From the sequence record PZ386957.1: a stretch of DNA of 64,000 nucleotides; one strand, given 5' to 3'. Positions 15,990-61,790 of the stretch are shown here, one piece after another. This DNA comes from a phage. Within the stretch, counting starts at the first letter, position 1. Every line of letters begins with the position of its first letter. The notes below the pieces were generated by a model. The model made no database searches. It saw nothing but the letters and a program-made list of their open reading frames with translations, and was not told where the DNA came from. The position numbers were made by a program, and so were the translations under genes.

Positions 15990-16024
15990 GGGAGTATCTT
16001 ACTACTCCCTTAATCCGGTGTCAA
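15990..16024 (-). promoter_or_regulatory. early sigma70-type promoter with inverted repeat around -10 (PeSL-like)
   Basis: Minus strand TTGACA-17 nt-TAAGAT; GGGAGTA/TACTCCC inverted repeat flanks the -10; AGGAATATATT ATG follows. Confidence 0.65.
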
Positions 16025-28555: not shown

Positions 28556-29943
28556 ATATAGTCTACACGATACCGCGCACGGGTAACACCGACATATAAT
28601 AACTGCATTGCCAATTCAAAGTCAACATTATCTGTACACATGCAAGGAGTATACAGGAACACGCGGTCTACGCTGATCCCTTGTGACTTATGAATGGTGC
28701 AAGCTGGCAATGCTTTTACATTCAAGAACATACGTTTCATCGTCCAGAAGGAATCCCAATCTGGTTTAAATTTTGGATTCTCTTTCTTCATTTCGCGATA
28801 TTGTCCGGCGACCGTATTCAGATAGATATAGAAAATGTTCTTCTGACGTTGTTCTGTCAGAATGTTGATTTCTACCAAATCTGGTTTATCTGTAGTGATT
28901 CCGACTGCATCTAAACCGACTTTCTGATTTAGGATTTCTTTGTCTTCGTCATCATCGACGCTTTCCACTTTCAGAGTATAGCCTAAAACTGGTTGCGGAT
29001 CTACCCCCGTGCAACGTAATGTAAATTCGCGCGGGATAACCTCTTTAACTCGGATCATCTCACCATTGTTAAAAATAACATTGGGAATCTTCTTCCCGCG
29101 TTCATCTCGCAGATATTCGATCAACGGTTCCTGAGTAACCAGAATTTCATCTACAATCACGGGTTCATCGGTGTTATAAACGCGCTTACGCACAATTTCA
29201 TTGAGTTTTTCGACGCTCTTGTTAGTGTAGGCCAGAATACGGTTTTCCAGCAAGTCTTCCGGCGTTTTAACGGCTTCAAAATAATGCTTCATGAACTCTG
29301 GCAGCGTTGAGCTATGGAATACACCCTCGTTGTCGCACTGCTTTTCGAATACCCATTTACCATTACGGACAGCGGTCGCCACATCAATTATTGGTGCATT
29401 GGATCGTTTAATCTCTGTAAGTTCTACATTCTGGAACTTTTCATCCGTGAAGAAAGGAGAAATTGACGTTGCACCACTCGGATCGACTGGTCGCAACTGG
29501 TGCGGATCTCCTACTGCAATAACCACAATTCGCCCGTTGATACTCTTCATGAGGATATCAAATAGTTTCTTATCGACCATACTCGCTTCATCAACAATGA
29601 TGATCTGCACATCATCAAGTTTAGGAGTATCTTTTTGCTCAAATACTTGAGTGTCTTCATAGTTGGTCGGATTGAGTCGCAGAAGTGCATGTAAGGTAAA
29701 CGCTTGACGGCCTACCGCTTTACTCAAAACCTTTTTAGCCTGGTGGGTAGGTGTTGCCAAAACCACACCAGTTACACCACGGCGGACCATTTCTTGAACA
29801 ATGAATTTCATCATTGCAGTTTTACCAGTACCAGCCGCACCACGGACCGTTGTGTGCTTCTTTTGTTCAATGCGTTTCATTAGAACATCAAAAGCATGTT
29901 TTTGTCCGTCTGTCAACATATCGAAAGTTAATACTCTGCTCAT
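28552..29943 (-). CDS. dda: Dda DNA helicase (SF1B)
   Basis: 463 aa; GAAGTGKT, ATPTHQAKKVLSK, VDEASMVD, GDPHQLRPV, ISPFFT, EIKRSNAPIIDVATAVRNGKW, LYVGVTRAR match remembered T4 Dda. Confidence 0.92.
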   Translation of the reverse strand: MSRVLTFDMLTDGQKHAFDVLMKRIEQKKHTTVRGAAGTGKTAMMKFIVQEMVRRGVTGVVLATPTHQAKKVLSKAVGRQAFTLHALLRLNPTNYEDTQVFEQKDTPKLDDVQIIIVDEASMVDKKLFDILMKSINGRIVVIAVGDPHQLRPVDPSGATSISPFFTDEKFQNVELTEIKRSNAPIIDVATAVRNGKWVFEKQCDNEGVFHSSTLPEFMKHYFEAVKTPEDLLENRILAYTNKSVEKLNEIVRKRVYNTDEPVIVDEILVTQEPLIEYLRDERGKKIPNVIFNNGEMIRVKEVIPREFTLRCTGVDPQPVLGYTLKVESVDDDEDKEILNQKVGLDAVGITTDKPDLVEINILTEQRQKNIFYIYLNTVAGQYREMKKENPKFKPDWDSFWTMKRMFLNVKALPACTIHKSQGISVDRVFLYTPCMCTDNVDFELAMQLLYVGVTRARYRVDYI

Positions 29944-30257
29944 TATCCTAAAATCCTCACCTTGCGAACACAGATAGTATTGAGTTCTCGTCGTACCCGT
30001 TCTTTTTCATATTCAGGAATTTTGTATTCTATACCATCCCGAACAATTTCAGAAGACCGGATTATACCAAATTTTCGTTTAGGTACAACCTTGTATTTCG
30101 GTTCACCCGCCAATAGACTCTCACAATAATCTATCTGATCACACATTGACGCTAACGCAGCATCATGTGTTTCGCAAGTTAGGACGCGACCTTTAGCGTC
30201 CACCGAGTATTGAAAGAATCCGTCTTTATCACGATAACATACAGCAAATACATGCAT
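29943..30257 (-). CDS. hypothetical protein (104 aa)
   Basis: ORF track; start overlaps dda stop. Confidence 0.4.
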   Translation of the reverse strand: MHVFAVCYRDKDGFFQYSVDAKGRVLTCETHDAALASMCDQIDYCESLLAGEPKYKVVPKRKFGIIRSSEIVRDGIEYKIPEYEKERVRRELNTICVRKVRILG

Positions 30258-33211: not shown

Positions 33212-33415
33212 TTATAGCTCAAATTTCATGAAAGTTCCCACACTTTCATTTTCATTCTCTCCGTTTTCATCTAAGCCAAATTTGTAGACACTACCATCTG
33301 GCGATGTGTAAGAGAATACACGAAAACGGCCTACCGGATCAAGTTCTTCAAGAACATATTCTTTTCCGGCTTCAAAAAGTGCATATGTGCTTTTAAGACA
33401 TTTCATCGTAATCAT
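33212..33415 (-). CDS. hypothetical protein (67 aa)
   Basis: ORF track. Confidence 0.4.
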   Translation of the reverse strand: MITMKCLKSTYALFEAGKEYVLEELDPVGRFRVFSYTSPDGSVYKFGLDENGENENESVGTFMKFEL

Positions 33416-34140: not shown

Positions 34141-34776
34141 TCAATCGAATGTAGAAAGCAAATGTTTTGTTTCTTTCAGTTGTCGTTCAAGATCTTTGCG
34201 TTTCTCTTTAAGTTGCATTTTAGCATTATTTCGCTCTCTTGTAACCTCTTTATCAATGCTCTTATTCCACTTATCAATATCAGAATAAGTTGGCATACCC
34301 AATTCTAGACCTAATGCGGTTGGATACAGGGTAACAGTCCATAAACCGCTAATCTTCTTAAATAGGTCGGGGTGTAGTGTACTATCTACATCTTCCGGTG
34401 TCAACTCTTTTTCTTCTTTCAGTGGTGGGATCTCGTCATATGGTTCCAGTGCATTTACTTTAATATCAGATACCTCATCAAAGAATCCGCGTACATCCGC
34501 AGGAAATACACAAGCAATTTCCCAACCGTGATCACGCAGAGAAGTAATATTTTTCACTCCCCCACCATGTGTGATGATTGATGTGACATTGCCATCAAGG
34601 TCCACCGAATTTACGAGAAATGGCTTATCGTCTGTCAGATCATTATAAAACTGTGCTTCGGCTGTAGTCATCTCCAGAAACAGATCTCGGATCGGACGAC
34701 CATCAGGTGCGTTACCTTCCTTGAGAGTATAAAAGCGACTTACGATCCATTTTTGCGGTAAAGCATTAGCGATCAT
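34141..34776 (-). CDS. hypothetical protein (211 aa)
   Basis: ORF track; C-terminal coiled coil. Confidence 0.45.
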   Translation of the reverse strand: MIANALPQKWIVSRFYTLKEGNAPDGRPIRDLFLEMTTAEAQFYNDLTDDKPFLVNSVDLDGNVTSIITHGGGVKNITSLRDHGWEIACVFPADVRGFFDEVSDIKVNALEPYDEIPPLKEEKELTPEDVDSTLHPDLFKKISGLWTVTLYPTALGLELGMPTYSDIDKWNKSIDKEVTRERNNAKMQLKEKRKDLERQLKETKHLLSTFD

Positions 34777-43699: not shown

Positions 43700-43749
43700 A
43701 AATTACATCATTAAAACGGGGAGTATTTACACTCCCCACAAACATTATA

Positions 43750-52688: not shown

Positions 52689-52947
52689 AAATCGCCCTCA
52701 GTTCTTTATAGCCTCCAATGTGCTCGTTGTCAATGAATATCTGGGGGTATACAAATCGGAGGCTGTCTTTACCCAACCTCCCCGCCAGTTCTTCAATCAT
52801 ATCACGGTCGGGAATAATGTCAACCCCGACCTGCTTGAATACTGGTTTAAGTGTATACGGAATACCCAGATCATCCAGTAGCTTCATTGCACTAATACAA
52901 CCATAACAATGATAAGCCTCTTTCGGTATACCGTATATCTCGATCAT
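52678..52947 (-). CDS. glutaredoxin-like protein (NrdH-like)
   Basis: 89 aa; CYGC active site near N-terminus and VYPQIFIDNEHIGGYKEL glutaredoxin C-terminal motif. Confidence 0.75.
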   Translation of the reverse strand: MIEIYGIPKEAYHCYGCISAMKLLDDLGIPYTLKPVFKQVGVDIIPDRDMIEELAGRLGKDSLRFVYPQIFIDNEHIGGYKELRAIYDY

Positions 52948-53420
52948 TTCTCAGCCTTTAATCTTTCCAGTTCTTCTTCCAGTTCCTTGATGCGTTGTTC
53001 TCGTTCAAAATCACGCTGTAACTTAGTGGCGAATACTCGTTTAAACTGATTGTAATCATCGATTTTAAACACTTCTTCTTCGCCATAGCGACGTACAGAA
53101 ACTTCGTAGTTATTGAAGAATTGTTGCATCATTGCTTCGGATGATAGTTCTGCTGATACTACTTTAAAATATTGATCTTCTGTAGGCGAAAACCAATTGC
53201 AAGCATAAAGATAAACCTTTTCATTGTCTGGACACTGGTAAGCCTTACCATCGATTTCAATCACAGAAACATATTCAGGTATAGTAGATGAATCAATAGC
53301 TAAGACTTTAAACTGACGGTCCCCGATAAACTCGGAGATCGCACGATTCGCATCACTGATCGCAAATGCTTTACGCGCTTGTTCGTTTTTCCACTGATAG
53401 GTCATGCCAACAACAAACAT
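52944..53420 (-). CDS. member of repeat-containing paralogous family (one N-terminal repeat unit plus coiled-coil tail)
   Basis: MTYQWKNEQARKAF...FKVLAIDSS...IEIDGKAY resembles the repeat unit in neighbouring genes; start moved to Met with SD GAGG. Confidence 0.5.
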   Translation of the reverse strand: MFVVGMTYQWKNEQARKAFAISDANRAISEFIGDRQFKVLAIDSSTIPEYVSVIEIDGKAYQCPDNEKVYLYACNWFSPTEDQYFKVVSAELSSEAMMQQFFNNYEVSVRRYGEEEVFKIDDYNQFKRVFATKLQRDFEREQRIKELEEELERLKAEK

Positions 53421-53421
53421 A

Positions 53422-54255
53422 TTACCAACCTCGCTCTTTACCAATCAAAAATTCAACTTCACGACGTTTAATGTCTTCTTGAAGGTCTTTAATCTTCTGG
53501 CGATCTTGCATGATTTCGTCCATTTTGTCAAGTGCTGCGATGAAATCATCGAAACGTTCAAAGGTTTTACCTTCATTTGCTTCGCCAAATTTAACCATTG
53601 TCAGGCCGTAACGACTACTAAACAGACGTTTCAACTGTCCAACGACCTTAGAATCATCGTTCACCTTTTCTTCTGGTTCTTTCACTGTTTCAACTTCACG
53701 AAAATATTTTCGTTCAAGCCCAACAAACCACACAGCATCAACATCATCATCAACACCCGCCGAATGAGGATTAAATGTTCCACAAGCATTATCATTATTG
53801 ACGTCGATCATAGTAACGAAACCAACAGAATCAACGGAAGATACCGTAAAAGTCTCATCTCCTATCCAATCAGCAATTTTACGGTTGATATTAGAACAGT
53901 GAGAAAACGTCACTTTTGCGTTTACATCTTTCCAAGTATAAGTTTTACCAACTTCCCATTTAGGAGGAACTTCTTCAACTTCACGAAAGAATTTTCTATC
54001 GAATGGACTAAAGAAATATGTTGATGTCCAAATGTCTTTTCCTGTAGCAGTTTTCGCCGTATGATAAACACCGTCTAGCTCTATTGCATCAATCCAACCG
54101 TTACCCTCGATCTCGATGATGGTAAATGGCTTGTCACCAATAGCTACACTAATATCGCTGTTAAGTGGAGAAAGACAACCGTCTACGTTAGTAATAAACT
54201 CAGTTTTAGCGTTTTCGTCTTTCCAAGTGTAAGTTTTACCAATTTCCCATTTCAT
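53422..54255 (-). CDS. member of repeat-containing paralogous family (two tandem repeat units)
   Basis: KWEIGKTYTWKDENAKTEF...RKFFREV and KWEVGKTYTWKDVNAKVTF...RKYFREV; preceded by AGAGGATTATATT-ATG. Confidence 0.55.
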   Translation of the reverse strand: MKWEIGKTYTWKDENAKTEFITNVDGCLSPLNSDISVAIGDKPFTIIEIEGNGWIDAIELDGVYHTAKTATGKDIWTSTYFFSPFDRKFFREVEEVPPKWEVGKTYTWKDVNAKVTFSHCSNINRKIADWIGDETFTVSSVDSVGFVTMIDVNNDNACGTFNPHSAGVDDDVDAVWFVGLERKYFREVETVKEPEEKVNDDSKVVGQLKRLFSSRYGLTMVKFGEANEGKTFERFDDFIAALDKMDEIMQDRQKIKDLQEDIKRREVEFLIGKERGW

Positions 54256-54267
54256 AATATAATCCTC

Positions 54268-54732
54268 TTAACCGATTTTATCAAGTTCGTTTAATGCTTT
54301 CTCTGCTTCCTGTATAGCTTGCACCCTTTCCGGCATTTTGTCAAGAAAATCTTTCAACTCTTCAAAACTGGAGATATGACGCAAGGCGTTAGCACCGATA
54401 GCCGCATGTGATTTGCATTCAAAGCGAATTTTATAATTATCCATCGCCAACTTGAGAAGATCAATTAGTTTAGATTCTTCTGGAATAATAATTTCTTCAA
54501 ATCTGCTACGGTCATGATCCAGAAACCAACAAGATAGACCTACATCGGTTGAACTCATATAAGTTCCATCATGAAGATATACAGACCGCACGTATCCTTT
54601 TTTCGCATCAACCGACGCAACTTTAAACGGTAATCTCAGATATTTCAAATAATCAACATCATACCATTTAAAAAATTGGTTTGCATCTTTTACATCTTTC
54701 CACGCATAGGTCTTACCAGCTTCCCATTTCAT
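54268..54732 (-). CDS. member of repeat-containing paralogous family
   Basis: MKWEAGKTYAWKDVKDANQFF... plus conserved C-terminal helical module (FLDKMPERVQAI). Confidence 0.5.
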   Translation of the reverse strand: MKWEAGKTYAWKDVKDANQFFKWYDVDYLKYLRLPFKVASVDAKKGYVRSVYLHDGTYMSSTDVGLSCWFLDHDRSRFEEIIIPEESKLIDLLKLAMDNYKIRFECKSHAAIGANALRHISSFEELKDFLDKMPERVQAIQEAEKALNELDKIG

Positions 54733-54736
54733 AATA

Positions 54737-55267
54737 TCATCTCTCATTTTTGATACGTGATTCTAATTGGATCATACGGTCGCGCGTTTGCTTGTATTCA
54801 CGGATAGCACCGATCCGGCTAGGCATACCATCTAGGACGCTCTTAATCCCTTCTAGGGTAGTGATTTTAGCAATGCTATTATGTAACCCCATCTTATCGA
54901 TCAACTGAATGTCGTAGGCTTCCATAAGCAGTCCCAGACGTTCTAAGGTTAAATCTTGTTCTTTATCTTCTTCCGATTCTGGAATCTTAGGTTCAATAGT
55001 AACTTCGGTAAAGAAACGACGCTCACCACCCCAAAACCACACACCGGAACAGTCAATAGGGGATTCTTTTAAAGTCATGGAGTCGAAATCACTACCAATA
55101 ATAGTAATTTCTCTAACATCACCATCGTCGTCAATGTCTTCTACCTTAAACGGGCGACCAGCCAACAGGTCCATAATACATCTGTTAATACCAGACGAAA
55201 ATTTAGTCAGTTCGGCTTTCGACGCTTCGCATTCAATCTTGTAAGTTTTACCAACTTCCCATTCCAT
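54737..55267 (-). CDS. member of repeat-containing paralogous family
   Basis: MEWEVGKTYKIECEASKAELTKF...GERRFFTEV plus C-terminal helical module (VLDGMPSRIGAI). Confidence 0.5.
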   Translation of the reverse strand: MEWEVGKTYKIECEASKAELTKFSSGINRCIMDLLAGRPFKVEDIDDDGDVREITIIGSDFDSMTLKESPIDCSGVWFWGGERRFFTEVTIEPKIPESEEDKEQDLTLERLGLLMEAYDIQLIDKMGLHNSIAKITTLEGIKSVLDGMPSRIGAIREYKQTRDRMIQLESRIKNER

Positions 55268-55277
55268 AATAATCACC

Positions 55278-55998: not shown

Positions 55999-56547
55999 TT
56001 ATTTTAAATTTTTTCGAATGTATTCAGACCATTCCTTCCCTGTCAGTTCGGTCCCATTCTGGAAACTGAAATATTCATACGGCATCGAGTCAAGATAAAA
56101 CAGGATCATACATCGCGCCATATAATACCAATCACGATTAAAGTAAACTACGTTATCACCAGTACCATCAACCCCTTTATCATAACCATCGCTGGTACGG
56201 GCGACCCATTGAATAGTATCATTTTTCTCACGGATAGTCACAGGTTCCCAATATCCAGCACATCCAGCATGACCACACGAACAAGTAAGGAAATATTGCC
56301 CTTTTGCTTTGTTGTCATCCCATTCACGATGGATTGGTTCGATCTCGTGAAACAGTGCCAAACAATCATGATTATGCAACACTGGCTTACCATCAATCAA
56401 TGCATGGAATGTATACAAACGACCCGTAGACAAATAGCTATCCTCACGCTCAACCAGTTCAATAGCAATCTTTTTAGCTCGTTCTTTGTGTCGTTGTGCT
56501 TTACGCTTACGGTTTAATGATTTCATATTCACCTCACACATTATCAA
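55999..56547 (-). CDS. hypothetical Cys-rich protein (182 aa)
   Basis: ORF track; HNHDCLALFH and CSCGHAGCAGYW could bind metal; function unknown. Confidence 0.45.
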   Translation of the reverse strand: MIMCEVNMKSLNRKRKAQRHKERAKKIAIELVEREDSYLSTGRLYTFHALIDGKPVLHNHDCLALFHEIEPIHREWDDNKAKGQYFLTCSCGHAGCAGYWEPVTIREKNDTIQWVARTSDGYDKGVDGTGDNVVYFNRDWYYMARCMILFYLDSMPYEYFSFQNGTELTGKEWSEYIRKNLK

Positions 56548-57083
56548 AGGTCGCGATATAGTACATTATGAAAATGAGAACTTGCATTACCAATATTGTA
56601 GATAACAAATTCTTCATCCGGCGCTTGCGCTACAAATTGAGTATGAGCAACCGCTACGACTTTAAAAATACGATCCGTGATCTTGTGCTTAATTTCTGCC
56701 CCTACTTCCATAGGAACATATTCATTTGTTTCTGTTTCAGTCGCAAAACAGCCATCTTCTTCATAAGCACGAACAAATCGGTCGCAATCAGTACGCTTAA
56801 CAAATTCAAGAGTATATAATTCTCGTGAATTGTCGGTATAGACCAATACAGAATTATTATGATAGCGAATCACATACAGGTTATTATCATCGTCAATTAC
56901 GCAAAAGCTACGGATTCCTTCGCCTTGACTCCAGCAGATATTAACCACCGTTCCTCTAATAAAAAAACTTTCCTTTAAATTAAAACTAGTCAATGTGCTA
57001 GCGTGCATTTTAACAACAACACCATCACCAATTTCCAGTTTACGAAGTTTAACTTCTTTGCTCAGTACACAAAACATCATCAT
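56544..57083 (-). CDS. hypothetical protein (179 aa; start moved to MMMF Met)
   Basis: ATG at 57083 preceded by AGAGAGGACAAT and promoter TTGACA-16-TATAAT. Confidence 0.45.
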   Translation of the reverse strand: MMMFCVLSKEVKLRKLEIGDGVVVKMHASTLTSFNLKESFFIRGTVVNICWSQGEGIRSFCVIDDDNNLYVIRYHNNSVLVYTDNSRELYTLEFVKRTDCDRFVRAYEEDGCFATETETNEYVPMEVGAEIKHKITDRIFKVVAVAHTQFVAQAPDEEFVIYNIGNASSHFHNVLYRDL

Positions 57084-57111
57084 ATTGTCCTCTCTTTGTT
57101 TCGATGTGAGC

Positions 57112-57139
57112 ATTATACATGAGCTAATCATGTTGTCAA
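57112..57139 (-). promoter_or_regulatory. early sigma70-type promoter (TTGACA-16-TATAAT)
   Basis: Minus strand consensus -35 and -10. Confidence 0.6.
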
Positions 57140-57150
57140 CACCCCAAAAC

Positions 57151-57177
57151 GAAAAAGCCGACCCTTTCGGATCGGCT
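57151..57177 (-). terminator. rho-independent terminator downstream of nrdD
   Basis: Minus strand AGCCGATCC-GAAA-GGGTCGGCT followed by TTTTC. Confidence 0.7.
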
Positions 57178-59045: not shown

Positions 59046-59089
59046 TGTATCACCTATGAAAAAGCGGGATTTCTCCCGCTCGTTGATAG

Positions 59090-59584
59090 TTATTTTACCA
59101 GTTCTGCTAATTCTTTTTCCGCCGCTTCCAGTTCAGCTTTCAGTTGTTTGATCTCTTGTCGCTTCTTATTAGCGGCTTCCTGCTTACTATTTCGGATAAC
59201 CTGATCTAGATACAACTCCCAATCCTGAATATTTTTGATAATGTAGCCGTCAACATTAATTGGTCGGAGATTCAGTACAGCTTCCAGTTTAGTTGCAAAA
59301 ACTTTAATTGCTGGGGTGAAGTATTCATATTCGTTATCTTCAAACCAATAACCTAGACTTGCATTCTCAATACGAAGATGAAGTTTAAGATCAAGGTCTT
59401 TATCATCGGTATATAGGTCTTTTACACACCCCATAGAATTAACAACAACTTTAAAACGAATTTTATCTACACCACCAAAAACATCTTCAAGAATATCAGC
59501 AATTGAGCTATTAGCGCAAGATTGGTCGCTGAATGCGTCAAGGTTTTCTTTAGTTACAGTATACCAAACATCTTGTACCCACAT
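59090..59584 (-). CDS. hypothetical protein with C-terminal coiled coil (164 aa)
   Basis: ORF track; AGAGGATTATATT-ATG leader. Confidence 0.45.
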   Translation of the reverse strand: MWVQDVWYTVTKENLDAFSDQSCANSSIADILEDVFGGVDKIRFKVVVNSMGCVKDLYTDDKDLDLKLHLRIENASLGYWFEDNEYEYFTPAIKVFATKLEAVLNLRPINVDGYIIKNIQDWELYLDQVIRNSKQEAANKKRQEIKQLKAELEAAEKELAELVK

Positions 59585-59614
59585 AATATAATCCTCTCGT
59601 TGTTAAGTGGGAGT

Positions 59615-59642
59615 ATTATAGCATACTCCCTTCGCATGTCAA
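59615..59642 (-). promoter_or_regulatory. early sigma70-type promoter with inverted repeat around -10 (PeSL-like)
   Basis: TTGACA-16-TATAAT with GGGAGTA/TACTCCC flanking the -10. Confidence 0.65.
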
Positions 59643-60817
59643 GCACTAACTTTTTTCTTTACTGCTTTCACCTTCTGGCGAATTGCTCGAATCTCTTCGA
59701 TCTCTTTTTCAGTCTCTTTAACAATTTCTTTGCGATTCTGAATATCTGTATCGAGATTATCATCAAGTTTAGGCAGCATGTCAATCAAGAACTTTTTAAA
59801 GTCTTTCAGGTTTCGAATAACAGCACCTTCGCCCATTACCGCAACACCCACACCATCCGGCAGATCACCAAACAGCTTAACCAGTTCAGACAGATGATCA
59901 TGATCTTCTAGTGCTTCTTCCGGTTCAGATGGCAGTTCAACAAAGTTATAACGTTCATCATTGCTGATCAAGTGATACCAGCAAAGCCCGAAAGATTTCG
60001 GTGTATATTCTACACCATCAATTTCAACCGCGTCAACACTTCCATAATCATCTACTTTAGTTACCTTAAATCCTTGTCCCAGCTTTTGAACAATTTCAAC
60101 AACATGACTTGATACAGTTTCAGCGGTAAACCAATATGGCAAATTATGCTGATTTGGCTTGTAGCGTTCACCTACTTTAAATCTCTGACCATCCGCTTGC
60201 ATAGAATGAAATTGTTGTTTCGTGATTTCCGCGAAGTATTCAAATTCGCCACCATCAAACACACAAGCCCATTGATCACAAAAACGATCTGCCTTAACAG
60301 TTTCACCTTTCGCGGTGATCATGGTAGCTGATCCGTGCAATTCTTCTTCAACTAAAAAGCCATATTCGACAAAATCAACAAGTTTCATAGCTTCTTTGTG
60401 ATCTGGATCATGCTCTCCCCAGAATCGCTTAAATTCTTGCAAACCTTCTGGGGTAAACGAATAACATTTACCTTTTTCAAAGTAAGTCGGCATTGCATCC
60501 TCTTTCTTGTTCATCGCTTCGTATGCCTCTTTTGAGATGCGTTTAAAGTATTTACGCTCATTGTGCATAATCATAGTAGCCCAATAATCAACAATATCAT
60601 TAGCGGAATAAACTACATCTCCAGCTTCAATAGTAATAACATGACCGTGGTCATCTTTTTCTAATACTTTAAAGCCCTTTTCTACGATTTCAGCAACCCG
60701 AATATGACCACGGCGCGAAGCATCGGTCAGAATAATTGAATAGCGAGAAAAGTCTAGAAACTCATCTTTACCGCCTTCACGGAATGCATAGTAATGACCT
60801 TCAAAGAATTTAGCCAT
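59639..60817 (-). CDS. member of repeat-containing paralogous family (three or more repeat units plus C-terminal helical module)
   Basis: 392 aa; repeated units around NERKYFKRISKEAYEAM, GKCYSFTPEGLQEFKRFW, GFKVLEKDD, GFKVTKVDDYGSVDAVEIDGVEY; C-terminal LKDFKKFLIDMLPKL module. Confidence 0.55.
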   Translation of the reverse strand: MAKFFEGHYYAFREGGKDEFLDFSRYSIILTDASRRGHIRVAEIVEKGFKVLEKDDHGHVITIEAGDVVYSANDIVDYWATMIMHNERKYFKRISKEAYEAMNKKEDAMPTYFEKGKCYSFTPEGLQEFKRFWGEHDPDHKEAMKLVDFVEYGFLVEEELHGSATMITAKGETVKADRFCDQWACVFDGGEFEYFAEITKQQFHSMQADGQRFKVGERYKPNQHNLPYWFTAETVSSHVVEIVQKLGQGFKVTKVDDYGSVDAVEIDGVEYTPKSFGLCWYHLISNDERYNFVELPSEPEEALEDHDHLSELVKLFGDLPDGVGVAVMGEGAVIRNLKDFKKFLIDMLPKLDDNLDTDIQNRKEIVKETEKEIEEIRAIRQKVKAVKKKVSA

Positions 60818-60848
60818 AATATAATCCTCTCGTTGTTTAGATGGGAGT

Positions 60849-60877
60849 ATCTTACTACTCCCGTTTCATCATGTCAA
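60849..60877 (-). promoter_or_regulatory. early sigma70-type promoter with inverted repeat around -10 (PeSL-like)
   Basis: TTGACA-17-TAAGAT with GGGAGTA/TACTCCC flanking the -10. Confidence 0.65.
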
Positions 60878-61440
60878 GCGTTAAATGACTTTTGGATCTC
60901 TTTCAGTTCAGCTACTTTATCGGCGCTATATTTTGCTTGATGTTCCATGCGCTTAAGCTCACCTTTGATATAGGTTTCTAGCTTAGGTTTATTCTCAATC
61001 AGAAAATCTTTCAAGTCATCGGCATTTTTAAAGTATAGCTGATTATCAAAGCTAAAATCTTCCAGCGTCAAGGATACCAAAGAAGATTTCGCAAACAAGT
61101 TAATCAGATCTTCCAGAGATTCTTCTTTCTTAACTGGTTTCATTTCTTCAAACTGCTTTTTAGTGATGCGTTTAAAGTATTTGCGCTCGTTTGCAGCAAT
61201 CAGAACAGATGCACCTTCATACCCATGAGTTTCTACCAGATACACACGCCCCATCGCATCAACAGTGAGAACTTTAAAGCCGTTACAAAGCACGTCATAC
61301 AAGAACTTATTATGTTGCGGACATCGTTTGATAAATTCTGCGGCTGTTTCTGCACTACGGAAAGTGTAATAACGACCTCGTTCAAAAGCAGCATCATTTG
61401 AAGACTTAGCCGGATACAATTTATACGTTTTCTGTACCAT
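60874..61440 (-). CDS. member of repeat-containing paralogous family
   Basis: GRYYTFRSAETAAEF...GFKVLTVDAMGRVYLVE...NERKYFKRITKKQFEEM plus C-terminal LKDFLIENKPKL module; start moved to Met with AGAGGATTATATT leader. Confidence 0.5.
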   Translation of the reverse strand: MVQKTYKLYPAKSSNDAAFERGRYYTFRSAETAAEFIKRCPQHNKFLYDVLCNGFKVLTVDAMGRVYLVETHGYEGASVLIAANERKYFKRITKKQFEEMKPVKKEESLEDLINLFAKSSLVSLTLEDFSFDNQLYFKNADDLKDFLIENKPKLETYIKGELKRMEHQAKYSADKVAELKEIQKSFNA

Positions 61441-61454
61441 AATATAATCCTCTA

Positions 61455-61727
61455 TCATTTCACTAATTGAACAGCACGAAACAGAATGCGGTCACACGGA
61501 AGAAGCATAAATTCCCAACGCGGATCAAAGTCTTTAGCGGTATATGTTTTCCCATCAACCGAGATTTCACTTACATAACCAATAGGTGACACTTTAAGAA
61601 CAGTAAACCCATTCTTGATGACTTCGTAGGTATCTTTCAAACCTTCGTAGTCATCCTCTAGGAAGTCTTTACGTGCTTGCTCAGATTTAAAAACATAGGC
61701 CACACCGGATTTAAACATCTTACGCAT
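61455..61727 (-). CDS. member of repeat-containing paralogous family (single repeat unit, 90 aa)
   Basis: MRKMFKSGVAYVFKSEQARKDFL...GFTVLKVSPIGYVSEISVDGKTY; start moved to Met with AAGGAGAATCAACA leader. Confidence 0.5.
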   Translation of the reverse strand: MRKMFKSGVAYVFKSEQARKDFLEDDYEGLKDTYEVIKNGFTVLKVSPIGYVSEISVDGKTYTAKDFDPRWEFMLLPCDRILFRAVQLVK

Positions 61728-61757
61728 TGTTGATTCTCCTTCTTGATTAGATGGGAG

Positions 61758-61786
61758 TATTTTACTACTCCCATTTCTTATTGTCA
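61758..61786 (-). promoter_or_regulatory. early sigma70-type promoter with inverted repeat around -10 (PeSL-like)
   Basis: TTGACA-17-TAAAAT with GGGAGTA/TACTCCC flanking the -10. Confidence 0.65.
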
Positions 61787-61790
61787 ACTA

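What the first reader, a model, noticed from the sequence alone, without database searches (positions are those of the whole stretch)
59639..61787. Second cluster of the same repeat family, including a 392-aa multi-repeat member
Three further ORFs (59639..60817, 60874..61440, 61455..61727) contain the same repeat unit (NERKYFKRI(S/T)K..(Y/F)E.M, GFKVL.VD..G.V, F..G..Y.F) and the same C-terminal module (LKDF..FLI...PKL). Each is preceded by its own PeSL-like promoter, and the two clusters are separated by nrdG/nrdD. The family therefore has at least seven members spread over ~9 kb, an unusually large paralog expansion for a phage early region.
Basis: seen in the sequence. Interest (0 to 1): 0.6.

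Follow-up and report, generated by a model that had tools for sequence, protein, structure and literature searches.

The report
Expanded GoF-like gene family in phage
The three ORFs are real, related early genes of an RB49-like (Krischvirus) coliphage that belong to the recently described T4 GoF/Frd.2/MotB.1 small beta-barrel family, here expanded to nine genes with twelve domain copies, so this is a known kind of protein of unknown wild-type function seen in an unusually large and variable set.

Summary
The window is a Krischvirus (RB49-like T4-type coliphage). The ORFs at 59639-60817, 60874-61440 and 61455-61727 (minus strand) share a ~95-aa domain with each other and with the four ORFs beyond nrdG/nrdD. 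An HMM trained on either cluster finds every member of the other (E 1e-3 to 1e-15).

RB49 carries 9 genes with 12 domains; T4 carries 3.

The 392-aa protein has three barrels only 20-31% identical to each other, plus a helical tail. All 59 Krischvirus genomes searched keep all three.

Variation lies elsewhere. One barrel of the 277-aa paralog is exchanged as a unit between isolates, two isolates carry one-barrel versions, and the 188-aa gene is mosaic.

PeSL promoter/stem-loop cassettes precede three of the four cluster-2 genes. The 188-aa gene has none.

Wild-type function is unknown. I infer early, dispensable binding adaptors. Interest is moderate to low.

The parts
61455..61727 (-). 90-aa gene (RB49 ORF060c homologue): a single GoF-like barrel with no C-terminal module. 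Slightly basic (pI 7.8).
   Evidence: Unit HMM E 2e-24. Cluster-1-only HMM E 3e-9. phrog_16115 E 1e-62. The start is the ATG at 61727 behind AAGGAG; the TTG at 61787 listed by the ORF finder is the -35 hexamer.
60874..61440 (-). 188-aa gene (RB49 ORF059c homologue): an 18-aa leader, one barrel (aa ~19-110), an acidic linker, then an alpha-beta-beta-alpha module and a long C-terminal helix. Basic (pI 8.8). It is the most variable member between isolates.
   Evidence: AF2 model, pLDDT about 90 over the barrel. phrog_8944 'goF' E 6e-97. 71-99% aa identity among 57 genomes. 81% nt identity to RB49 against 98-99% in the flanks.
59639..60817 (-). 392-aa gene (RB49 'frd.2'): three tandem barrels plus a helical tail. 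Barrel 1 is aa 1-110 (60488-60817), barrel 2 is aa 109-210 (60188-60493), barrel 3 is aa 209-305 (59903-60193). The tail is aa 306-392 (59639-59902).
   Evidence: Three HMM domains. The AF2 model repeats the same strand/helix pattern three times; linkers have pLDDT below 50 and pTM is 0.33. dN/dS against RB49 is 0.11. All 59 genomes keep the full length.
59090..59584 (-).
   Evidence: Cluster-1-only HMM E 1.2e-3. phrog_3710, which cluster-1 proteins also hit, E 6e-5. A 163-aa ECD7 protein, presumably the orthologue of this gene (not checked), is the third-best structural match to the 188-aa model, E 2e-6.
61745..61787 (-). PeSL cassette upstream of the 90-aa gene: TTGACA (61787-61782), 17-nt spacer, TAAAAT, with the 9-bp stem AUGGGAGUA/UACUCCCAU (61751-61774) spanning the spacer and the -10.
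   Evidence: Promoter scan 11/12. Fold -13.8 kcal/mol, z -4.0. Stem pattern found 5 times in the window against 0.01 expected.
60835..60877 (-). PeSL cassette upstream of the 392-aa gene: TTGACA, 17 nt, TAAGAT, stem at 60843-60862. The TGA stop of the 188-aa gene lies inside the -35 (gcTTGAca).
   Evidence: Fold -12.6 kcal/mol, z -3.2.
59600..59642 (-). PeSL cassette upstream of the 164-aa gene: TTGACA, 16 nt, TG-TATAAT (12/12), stem at 59609-59630. The TGA stop of the 392-aa gene lies inside the -35.
   Evidence: Fold -14.5 kcal/mol, z -4.4.
59062..59081 (-). GC-rich hairpin followed by a U-run after the 164-aa gene and just upstream of nrdD. Probable intrinsic terminator that closes cluster 2.
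   Evidence: Fold -17 kcal/mol, z -3.7; sequence. The consensus terminator scan did not list it.
52944..55276 (-). Cluster 1: four tightly packed paralogs directly downstream of nrdG, five barrels in all. They are 54737-55276 (1 barrel), 54268-54747 (1), 53422-54255 (2) and 52944-53444 (1). Each has a helical C-terminal module.
   Evidence: All four hit phrog_5347 at E 1e-59 to 1e-70.
34141..34776 (-). Ninth member (RB49 'dc2', 211 aa), directly downstream of the gene 41 helicase: one barrel plus a coiled-coil tail.
   Evidence: Found by an HMM that did not contain it, E 1e-7. A 211-aa ECD7 protein named Dc2 is a structural hit of the 188-aa model. RB49 annotation.

Best explanation
Cluster 2 is a block of four early genes of a Krischvirus. 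They are transcribed from strong sigma70-type PeSL promoter/stem-loop cassettes: one for the 90-aa plus 188-aa pair, one for the 392-aa gene and one for the 164-aa gene.

All four encode members of the GoF/Frd.2/MotB.1 family of T4-type phages. The shared unit is a ~95-aa SH3-like small beta-barrel with the order beta1, two inserted helices, beta2-beta3-beta4, a short helix, beta5. In eight of the nine genes the barrel or barrels are followed by an acidic linker and a helical C-terminal module ending in a long helix. The 392-aa protein strings three anciently diverged barrels in front of one such tail.

Shown here: the homology, the fold class, the gene count, purifying selection, the PeSL anatomy and the pattern of variation between isolates.

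Inferred mechanism: these are abundant, individually dispensable early proteins that work as binding adaptors. Each barrel recognises a host or phage macromolecule. The candidates are an mRNA or, more likely for the acidic units, a protein of the RNA-handling or transcription-termination machinery, as hinted by T4 goF suppressors of rho alleles. The C-terminal helix pairs the proteins, so that multi-barrel members bind with higher valency or bridge several targets. The (E/D)R(K/R)(Y/F)F motif on beta5 probably lies on the working surface, because the T4 suppressor mutation G84R maps into it.

My confidence splits. Membership of the family and the fold is about 0.9. Early binding adaptors of this general kind is about 0.5. 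A specific effect on mRNA stability or Rho is about 0.25.
For: Host and lineage: 95-97.5% nt identity to Krischvirus genomes.

Family:
- A unit HMM built only from window sequences hits T4 GoF at E 1e-10, Frd.2 at 4e-6 and MotB.1 at 8e-3, each over the full N-terminal domain.
- PHROG 'goF' families are hit.
- The BFVD structure search returns 50 hits at E <= 1e-3; every named hit is a phage protein, mostly of T4-type phages, and one is an annotated GoF at E 7e-6.
- The family and its barrel were described in PMC12152347.

Fold:
- In the AF2 model the barrel has pLDDT about 90.
- Foldseek on the 392-aa model gives the Mind bomb tandem repeat domain, then FeoA, SloR and IdeR.

Real genes: dN/dS is 0.03-0.68 for all nine.

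Early expression: three PeSLs match the published anatomy of stop codon, -35, stem, -10, Shine-Dalgarno and ATG.

Dispensability and diversification:
- Whole-barrel allele replacement occurs at 53600-53950, and the 188-aa gene is mosaic.
- Isolates ELT4 and AV108 have one-barrel versions of the 277-aa gene, and ELT4 has a split paralog.

Pairing: GoF and MotB.1 run as monomer plus dimer (PMC12152347), and both models predict a long terminal helix.

Functional surface: at the T4 G84-equivalent column 5 of 12 units have K or R, and 8 of 12 have R one position before it.
Against: - Wild-type function is unknown even in T4. Wild-type GoF and MotB.1 showed no strong effect on the reporter RNA; only the mutant D25Y did.
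- No interaction partner was found in pull-downs.
- The alignments behind the models are shallow. pTM of 0.33 for the 392-aa model says nothing about how the barrels pack.
- Expression timing is predicted from promoter sequence, not measured.
- Homology of the C-terminal module across clusters is only marginal.
Confidence: 0.55

Rival explanations
1. Counter-defence or host-range toolkit. Each barrel is a decoy or inhibitor aimed at a different host protein, such as a defence-system sensor, a nuclease or Rho. The array is kept diverse by an arms race, and multi-barrel proteins cover several targets. This overlaps with the best explanation but places the selective driver in host immunity rather than in phage mRNA metabolism.
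For: - The genes sit in hyperplastic regions flanked by PeSLs.
- Isolates differ sharply in a genus that is otherwise 95-99% identical. The 188-aa protein ranges from 71 to 99% identity. The window's 277-aa allele occurs in 3 of 60 genomes, with one barrel swapped.
- Barrel loss and pseudogenisation are tolerated.
- Most units are acidic, pI 4.4-6, which suits protein binding or nucleic-acid mimicry.
- In a distant relative the array sits near SIR2, NADAR and RlaP genes.
Against: - No member is linked to any defence system in the papers I found.
- Average dN/dS is below 1 for every member, and no site-level test was run.
- The 392-aa gene itself is conserved at 90-99%.
Confidence: 0.25
2. True LSm/Hfq-type RNA chaperones. 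The barrels assemble into rings, for example three barrels times two chains giving a pseudo-hexamer, and bind RNA directly to protect phage transcripts.
For: - The published label is 'LSm-like fold'. GoF(D25Y) stabilises a gene 41 leader reporter RNA independently of Hfq.
- Three barrels plus a dimerising helix would give six barrels.
- The 188-aa and 90-aa proteins are basic.
Against: - There is no Pfam LSM or Hfq hit at E <= 1.
- There is no N-terminal helix; the helices are inserted between beta1 and beta2.
- Ten of twelve units are acidic.
- The authors' AlphaFold3 runs gave no confident dimer or hexamer.
- pTM of 0.33 gives no sign of inter-barrel packing.
- Wild-type GoF had no strong RNA effect.
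Confidence: 0.12
3. Recently amplified tandem repeat prone to copy-number change. This is the reader's implied idea that repeat number may vary between isolates of the 392-aa gene.
For: - Short direct DNA repeats exist at the conserved motifs, for example 53 nt at 77% between 60510-60562 and 61139-61191, and 73 nt at 66-74% in cluster 1.
- Copy number does change in the two-barrel cluster-1 gene in 2 of about 60 isolates.
Against: - The three barrels of the 392-aa protein are only 20-31% identical.
- All 59 genomes and 8 metagenomic clusters keep 391-392 aa.
Confidence: 0.03

Closest known systems
T4 GoF (ComC-alpha), Frd.2 and MotB.1: the phage 'LSm-like fold' family (Kim et al. 2025, PMC12152347)
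   Same: - The N-terminal ~90-aa five-stranded barrel is the same, with significant profile matches.
- The conserved positions are the same: F/W-x-x-G/N-x-x-Y, F, F-K-V/I, G, W/F and E-x-x-F-F-x-E-V.
- FeoA is the nearest solved fold in both studies.
- Both have an acidic linker plus a separate C-terminal part.
- Both are early genes in dispensable regions of T4-type phages.
   Different: - T4 has three dispersed single-barrel genes. This phage has nine genes, eight of them in two clusters flanking nrdG/nrdD, with two- and three-barrel proteins.
- Here the tails end in a long coiled-coil-like helix, whereas the T4 tails are short.
- The paper does not mention RB49, tandem barrels or paralog arrays.
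FeoA and the C-terminal SH3-like domains of DtxR-family regulators (IdeR, SloR, ScaR)
   Different: - Sequence identity is only 7-16%, and the scores are low.
- The reference paper notes that GoF lacks the metal-coordinating histidines of the regulators; I did not check these units for them.
- There is no iron-transport context.
- The resemblance is at fold level only.
Sm/LSm/Hfq RNA chaperones
   Same: A five-stranded bent antiparallel sheet of similar size, and a genetic link of one family member (the GoF D25Y mutant) to mRNA stability.
   Different: - There is no N-terminal helix and no Pfam LSM or Hfq match.
- These proteins are not among the listed structural hits.
- Most units are acidic.
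- There is no evidence for rings.
PeSL (promoter-early stem-loop) cassettes of RB49 and phi1 (Arbiol et al. 2010, PMC2839356)
   Same: The order of elements is the same: upstream stop codon, consensus -35, a stem-loop between or over the boxes, -10, Shine-Dalgarno and start codon. They sit in front of genes of unknown function.
   Different: Nothing essential differs; these are ordinary PeSLs. The 188-aa gene lacks one, and cluster 1 has none with this stem.
Mind bomb 1 MIB/REP tandem repeat domain
   Different: It is a eukaryotic ubiquitin-ligase substrate-binding module with about 10% identity. It is an analogy for tandem use of such barrels as protein-binding units, not a relative.

Membership tests
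GoF/Frd.2/MotB.1 phage barrel family (PMC12152347) | [quoted passage not shown] | tested here: met
   An HMM of 11 window units, with T4 excluded, gives GoF 1e-10, Frd.2 4e-6 and MotB.1 8e-3, each over about 90 residues. PHROG goF families 8944, 13003 and 2980 are hit.
GoF/Frd.2/MotB.1 phage barrel family (PMC12152347) | N-terminal bent five-stranded antiparallel beta-barrel joined by a flexible linker to a separate C-terminal domain | tested here: met
   In the AF2 model the strands are at 30-33, 61-66, 72-77, 80-87 and 95-98 with pLDDT about 90, the linker has pLDDT below 50, and a helical C-terminal domain follows. The pattern repeats three times in the 392-aa model. These are predictions, not solved structures.
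GoF/Frd.2/MotB.1 phage barrel family (PMC12152347) | Nearest solved folds are FeoA-type SH3-like barrels | tested here: met
GoF/Frd.2/MotB.1 phage barrel family (PMC12152347) | Early gene of a T4-type phage, individually dispensable | tested here: inconclusive
   Consensus sigma70 PeSL promoters lie upstream, and natural isolates have lost or split members. Neither timing nor dispensability was measured for this phage.
GoF/Frd.2/MotB.1 phage barrel family (PMC12152347) | Effect on mRNA level or stability, or suppression of rho (nusD) alleles | not testable with these tools
   This is known only for mutant T4 GoF. It needs genetics or RNA decay assays.
Sm/LSm/Hfq | Match to Sm/Hfq sequence profiles | tested here: not met
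   None of the eight paralogs has a Pfam LSM or Hfq hit at E <= 1. NCBIfam gives nothing either.
Sm/LSm/Hfq | N-terminal alpha-helix followed by the five strands, and closest structural neighbours that are Sm or Hfq | tested here: not met
Sm/LSm/Hfq | Ring-shaped homo-oligomer that binds RNA | not testable with these tools
   No multimer prediction was available here. The paper's AlphaFold3 multimers were not confident. The acidic pI of 10 of 12 units argues against general RNA binding.
PeSL regulatory cassette (PMC2839356) | Upstream stop codon, sigma70 -35 and -10, a stable stem-loop between or over the boxes, Shine-Dalgarno and start codon, in an intergenic region | tested here: met
   Met at 61745-61787, 60835-60877 and 59600-59642. 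Not met upstream of 61440, which has no hexamers and no stem (z +0.3).
PeSL regulatory cassette (PMC2839356) | Promoter and terminator/attenuator activity | not testable with these tools
   This was shown experimentally for other PeSLs of phi1 and RB49, not for these three.

The most novel reading that the evidence does not exclude
The GoF-like barrels are a modular, fast-exchanging recognition system. Arrays of SH3/Tudor/KOW-like barrels on a conserved dimerising tail are swapped barrel by barrel between co-infecting phages through recombination at the conserved motif-coding DNA and at PeSLs. This retargets host factors such as Rho, the RNA degradosome or immune sensors. Multi-barrel proteins like the 392-aa one would act as polyvalent inhibitors or bridges. 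That would make this one of the largest diversifying host-takeover families in T4-type phages, and it would explain the old goF-rho genetics.
Probability: 0.2. Interest if true: 0.65.

Novelty: new member of a known kind. Interest (0 to 1): 0.35.

Why it matters
The wild-type role of GoF/ComC-alpha has been open since the nusD/rho suppressor work. The family was recognised only in 2025, from three single-domain T4 genes.

Some T4-type lineages carry nine or more paralogs, with two- and three-barrel proteins and barrel-level allele exchange. They offer natural variants: barrel swaps, barrel deletions, and basic versus acidic units. These variants could guide binding-partner searches and mutational mapping.

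The results also caution against reading the database label 'goF mRNA metabolism modulator', or the name 'LSm-like', as an established RNA function. The practical gain is better annotation of several 'hypothetical' genes in each Krischvirus genome. These phages are used in phage therapy collections.

Tried and rejected
- Pfam and NCBIfam gave only sub-threshold noise (RecT, LYR, rpoE and others). T4 GoF itself matches no NCBIfam model; I did not scan it against Pfam.
- Rfam over the whole window gave no match.
- A sequence profile against PDB gave only chance-level partial hits: flagellin hook IN motif, RepX and CDPK.
- The search for homologous proteins with the unit profile returned only close Krischvirus relatives, because of its word index.
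- The afdb50 fold library was not available.
- In the 1.84-billion-protein search, the hits longer than 800 aa, and also the 797-aa P0028 and 476-aa P0110, match only profile positions ~22-65 many times over. P0028 and P0110, the two whose sequences I read, are long tandem-repeat proteins, and I rejected all of these hits as spurious.
- Weak unit-HMM hits to 56544-57131, 29943-30257 and 33212-33415 (E 0.02-1) fall in unrelated PHROGs and were not accepted as members.
- C-terminal module homology between the clusters is marginal with HMMER (only the 392-aa protein, E 8e-4) and uninformative with hhalign. I therefore describe it as a shared architecture rather than proven homology.
- The idea that the three barrels pack into a ring-like unit gets no support from the model (pTM 0.33), but this method cannot exclude it.
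Full report
**What the window is.** The region 59000-62300 matches 59 phage genomes at 90-99% nucleotide identity. They are RB49, JSE, phi1, ECD7, KMB43 and similar phages, all of the genus Krischvirus in the family Straboviridae. Every gene near the finding lies on the minus strand. The RB49 annotation gives the order 49 (endonuclease VII), ORF060c, ORF059c, 'frd.2', ORF057c, nrdD, three small ORFs, nrdG, ORF051c to ORF048c, nrdH.

**Checking the observation.**
- The three ORFs exist as described: 59639-60817 (392 aa), 60874-61440 (188 aa) and 61455-61727 (90 aa). The mechanical ORF list gives longer versions (194 and 110 aa). The sequence shows that the TTG at 61787 is the -35 hexamer of a promoter, and that 61440 is the ATG behind GAGG.
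- Aligning the repeat units shows one ~95-aa unit with the pattern W/F-x-x-G-x-x-Y ... F ... F-K-V ... G-x-V ... W/F ... (E/D)-R-x-(Y/F)-F-x-x-(V/I).
- An HMM of the units finds three copies in the 392-aa protein (E 4e-28, 1e-26, 6e-27). It finds two copies in the 277-aa protein and one in each of six others. One of those six was not used to build the HMM: 34141-34776, E 1e-7.
- The fairest test is cross-validation. An HMM of cluster-1 units alone ranks the four cluster-2 proteins directly after its own training set among 605 ORFs (E 1.5e-13 to 1.2e-3). The cluster-2 HMM does the same for cluster 1 (E 6e-15 to 1e-6).

**How large the family is.** I assembled the whole RB49 genome from five fetched pieces and scanned all six frames with an iterated unit HMM. 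There are exactly nine proteins with twelve domains. All lie in the part of the genome that this window covers. T4 has three members.

**What the family is.**
- PHROGs places the 392-aa and 188-aa proteins in phrog_8944, 'goF mRNA metabolism modulator'. The others fall in related families of unknown function.
- Pfam and NCBIfam have no model for the domain, and T4 GoF itself matches no NCBIfam model.
- A literature search found Kim et al. 2025 (PMC12152347). [quoted passage not shown]
- I tested membership directly. The HMM built only from window units matches T4 GoF (E 1e-10), Frd.2 (4e-6) and MotB.1 (8e-3) across their whole N-terminal domains.
- An AlphaFold2 model of the 188/194-aa protein, using the window's own paralogs as the alignment, gives a confident barrel (pLDDT about 90). 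Two helices are inserted between beta1 and beta2. A low-confidence linker follows, then a helix, two short strands, a helix and a 37-residue terminal helix.
- Foldseek against viral models returns 50 hits at E <= 1e-3. Every named hit is a phage protein, and most are from T4-type phages of Serratia, Aeromonas, Acinetobacter, Citrobacter, Edwardsiella, Pectobacterium and others. One is an annotated GoF. Two phages that I recall as not T4-type, phAPEC8 and CBB, also appear.
- No Sm or Hfq protein appears in either PDB list.
- I therefore file the proteins in the GoF/Frd.2/MotB.1 family. I treat 'LSm' as a fold-class resemblance whose defining features are not met.

**The 392-aa protein.**
- Its model repeats the same strand/helix pattern three times: aa 9-102, 118-209 and 218-295. 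The linkers have pLDDT below 50, a 55-residue terminal helix follows, and pTM is 0.33. This looks like three beads on a string with no confident packing.
- Single-barrel paralogs align to barrel 3 plus the tail. Two-barrel paralogs align to barrels 2-3 plus the tail. This suggests that barrels were added at the N-terminus.
- The barrels are 20-31% identical to each other. Barrel 1 is closest to the barrel of the neighbouring 188-aa gene, at 40%.
- At DNA level only short motif-length similarities remain.
- The protein is 90-99% identical and full length in all 59 genomes. In the 5.8-billion-protein collection it has only eight close clusters, all of 391-392 aa. Repeat number does not vary, and dN/dS against RB49 is 0.11.

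**Where variation does occur.**
- The window and RB49 are 97-100% identical along 52.5-62.4 kb except at two places.
- The first is 53600-53950 (43-74% identity), which is exactly barrel 2 of the 277-aa protein.
- The second is 60900-61100 plus 61200-61400 (61-83%), inside the 188-aa gene.
- The window's 277-aa allele occurs in only 3 of 60 genomes.
- The 188-aa protein ranges from 71 to 99% identity.
- Phages ELT4 and AV108 carry one-barrel versions of the 277-aa gene (178 and 177 aa). ELT4 keeps barrel 1 and AV108 keeps a barrel-2-type unit. This pattern is what recombination within the conserved KWE(V/I)GKTYTWKD or RKFFREVE coding motifs would produce.
- ELT4 also has the 166-aa paralog split into two ORFs.
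- Members are therefore exchangeable and individually expendable. Average selection is still purifying, with dN/dS of 0.03-0.68.

**Spread of the family.**
- A profile search of 1.84 billion representative proteins found 96 clusters at E <= 1e-3. After I discarded repetitive long proteins that match only part of the profile, about 80 clusters remained. These are small proteins with the barrel at the extreme N-terminus and a median length of 164 aa.
- Ten clusters have two barrels, and only two lineages have three.
- The second three-barrel protein, P0033, lies on a 71-kb T4-like metagenomic contig. It sits within a run of five adjacent multi-barrel genes with at least 11 barrels, immediately upstream of an nrdD gene split by homing endonucleases.
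- Large arrays next to nrdD are thus not peculiar to Krischvirus. T4 is the minimal case.

**Promoters.**
- Three intergenic regions have the published PeSL anatomy. The upstream stop codon comes first; in two cases its TGA lies inside gcTTGAca. Then come TTGACA, a 16-17-nt spacer, and a -10 of TAAAAT, TAAGAT or TATAAT. A GGGAGTA...TACTCCC stem overlaps the spacer and the -10 (-12.6 to -14.5 kcal/mol, z -3.2 to -4.4). A Shine-Dalgarno sequence and the ATG follow.
- These PeSLs precede the 90-aa, 392-aa and 164-aa genes.
- The 188-aa gene starts 14 nt after the stop of the 90-aa gene, with only GAGG and no stem (z +0.3). It is probably co-transcribed with the 90-aa gene.
- A hairpin with a U-run follows the 164-aa gene.
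- Cluster 1 is packed directly behind nrdG without this stem.

**Mechanism.** What is known comes from T4.
- GoF is an abundant early protein.
- Deleting it has no effect in the laboratory.
- The mutants D25Y and G84R let T4 grow on rho (nusD) alleles.
- D25Y, but not wild type, stabilises a gene 41 leader reporter RNA independently of Hfq.
- GoF and MotB.1 run partly as dimers.
- Pull-downs found no partner.
- A CRISPRi screen scored frd.2 as a fitness gene, while an amber mutant plates normally.

Three observations from this window add to that picture.
- Ten of twelve barrels are acidic (pI 4.4-6.1). Only the 188-aa and 90-aa proteins are basic.
- The most conserved polar motif, (E/D)R(K/R)(Y/F)F on beta5, includes the column of the T4 G84R mutation. 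Five of 12 units have K or R at that column, and 8 of 12 have R one position before it.
- At the D25-equivalent column, barrels 1 and 2 of the 392-aa protein carry F and W. The alignment of that loop is uncertain.

I therefore favour binding adaptors whose barrels recognise a protein or RNA of the host RNA-handling machinery and which pair through the terminal helix. A counter-defence role is the main rival, and a true Hfq-like chaperone is a weaker one. None of these steps has been shown experimentally.

**Verdict.** The finding is real, but it belongs to a family that is already described and already named in RefSeq annotation. The new points are the size of the expansion, the tandem-barrel architecture and the barrel-level allele exchange. 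The repeat-instability idea fails for the gene it was aimed at but holds for a paralog in cluster 1.

Noticed in passing
window 34141-34776 (-): A ninth family member (RB49 'dc2', 211 aa) sits directly downstream of the gene 41 helicase. In T4, the GoF D25Y mutant acts on gene 41 mRNA. This may be coincidence.
   Followed up: partly
window 15990-16009 and 43719-43736: Two further copies of the PeSL-type stem GGGAGT...ACTCCC lie elsewhere in the window. The one at 15990 is identical to the stem at 60843-60862.
   Followed up: no
window 60872-60877 and 59637-59642 (-): The TGA stop codon of the upstream gene is embedded in the -35 hexamer (gcTTGAca) of the next PeSL, so coding sequence and promoter overlap.
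   Followed up: yes
window 59582-59607, 60815-60840, 61438-61463, 57078-57103: A shared translation-start context, GAGAGGATTATATTATG and close variants, is repeated in front of four genes. One copy lies in front of the 56544-57131 ORF downstream of nrdD (family D3).
   Followed up: no
window 53600-53950 against RB49 (L001): One whole barrel of the two-barrel 277-aa gene is replaced by a very different allele (43-74% nt identity) while the flanks are 94-99% identical. The window's allele occurs in only 3 of 60 genomes.
   Followed up: yes
L008 2510-3046 (phage ELT4) and L009 2510-3043 (phage AV108): These are one-barrel versions (178 and 177 aa) of the 277-aa gene, produced by two different deletions. 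In ELT4 the next paralog is split into two ORFs at L008 3048-3344 and 3356-3544.
   Followed up: yes
L010 5887-11566 (metagenomic contig SRR14300940_297): Five adjacent multi-barrel family genes with at least 11 barrels lie upstream of an nrdD gene interrupted by SegE-like and I-HmuI-like homing endonucleases. SIR2, NADAR, RlaP, HD and TM2 genes lie just upstream.
   Followed up: partly
window 56544-57131 (-): This 195-aa ORF between nrdG and nrdD gives two weak, non-significant matches to the barrel HMM (E about 0.1-1). It belongs to an unrelated PHROG of unknown function, so it may be a very distant two-barrel relative or nothing.
   Followed up: partly
window 57112-57177 (-): A strong hairpin terminator (57156-57177) lies immediately after nrdD. 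A perfect 12/12 TTGACA-16-TATAAT promoter (57139-57112) follows it. This is a PeSL-like unit with the stem upstream of the -35.
   Followed up: no
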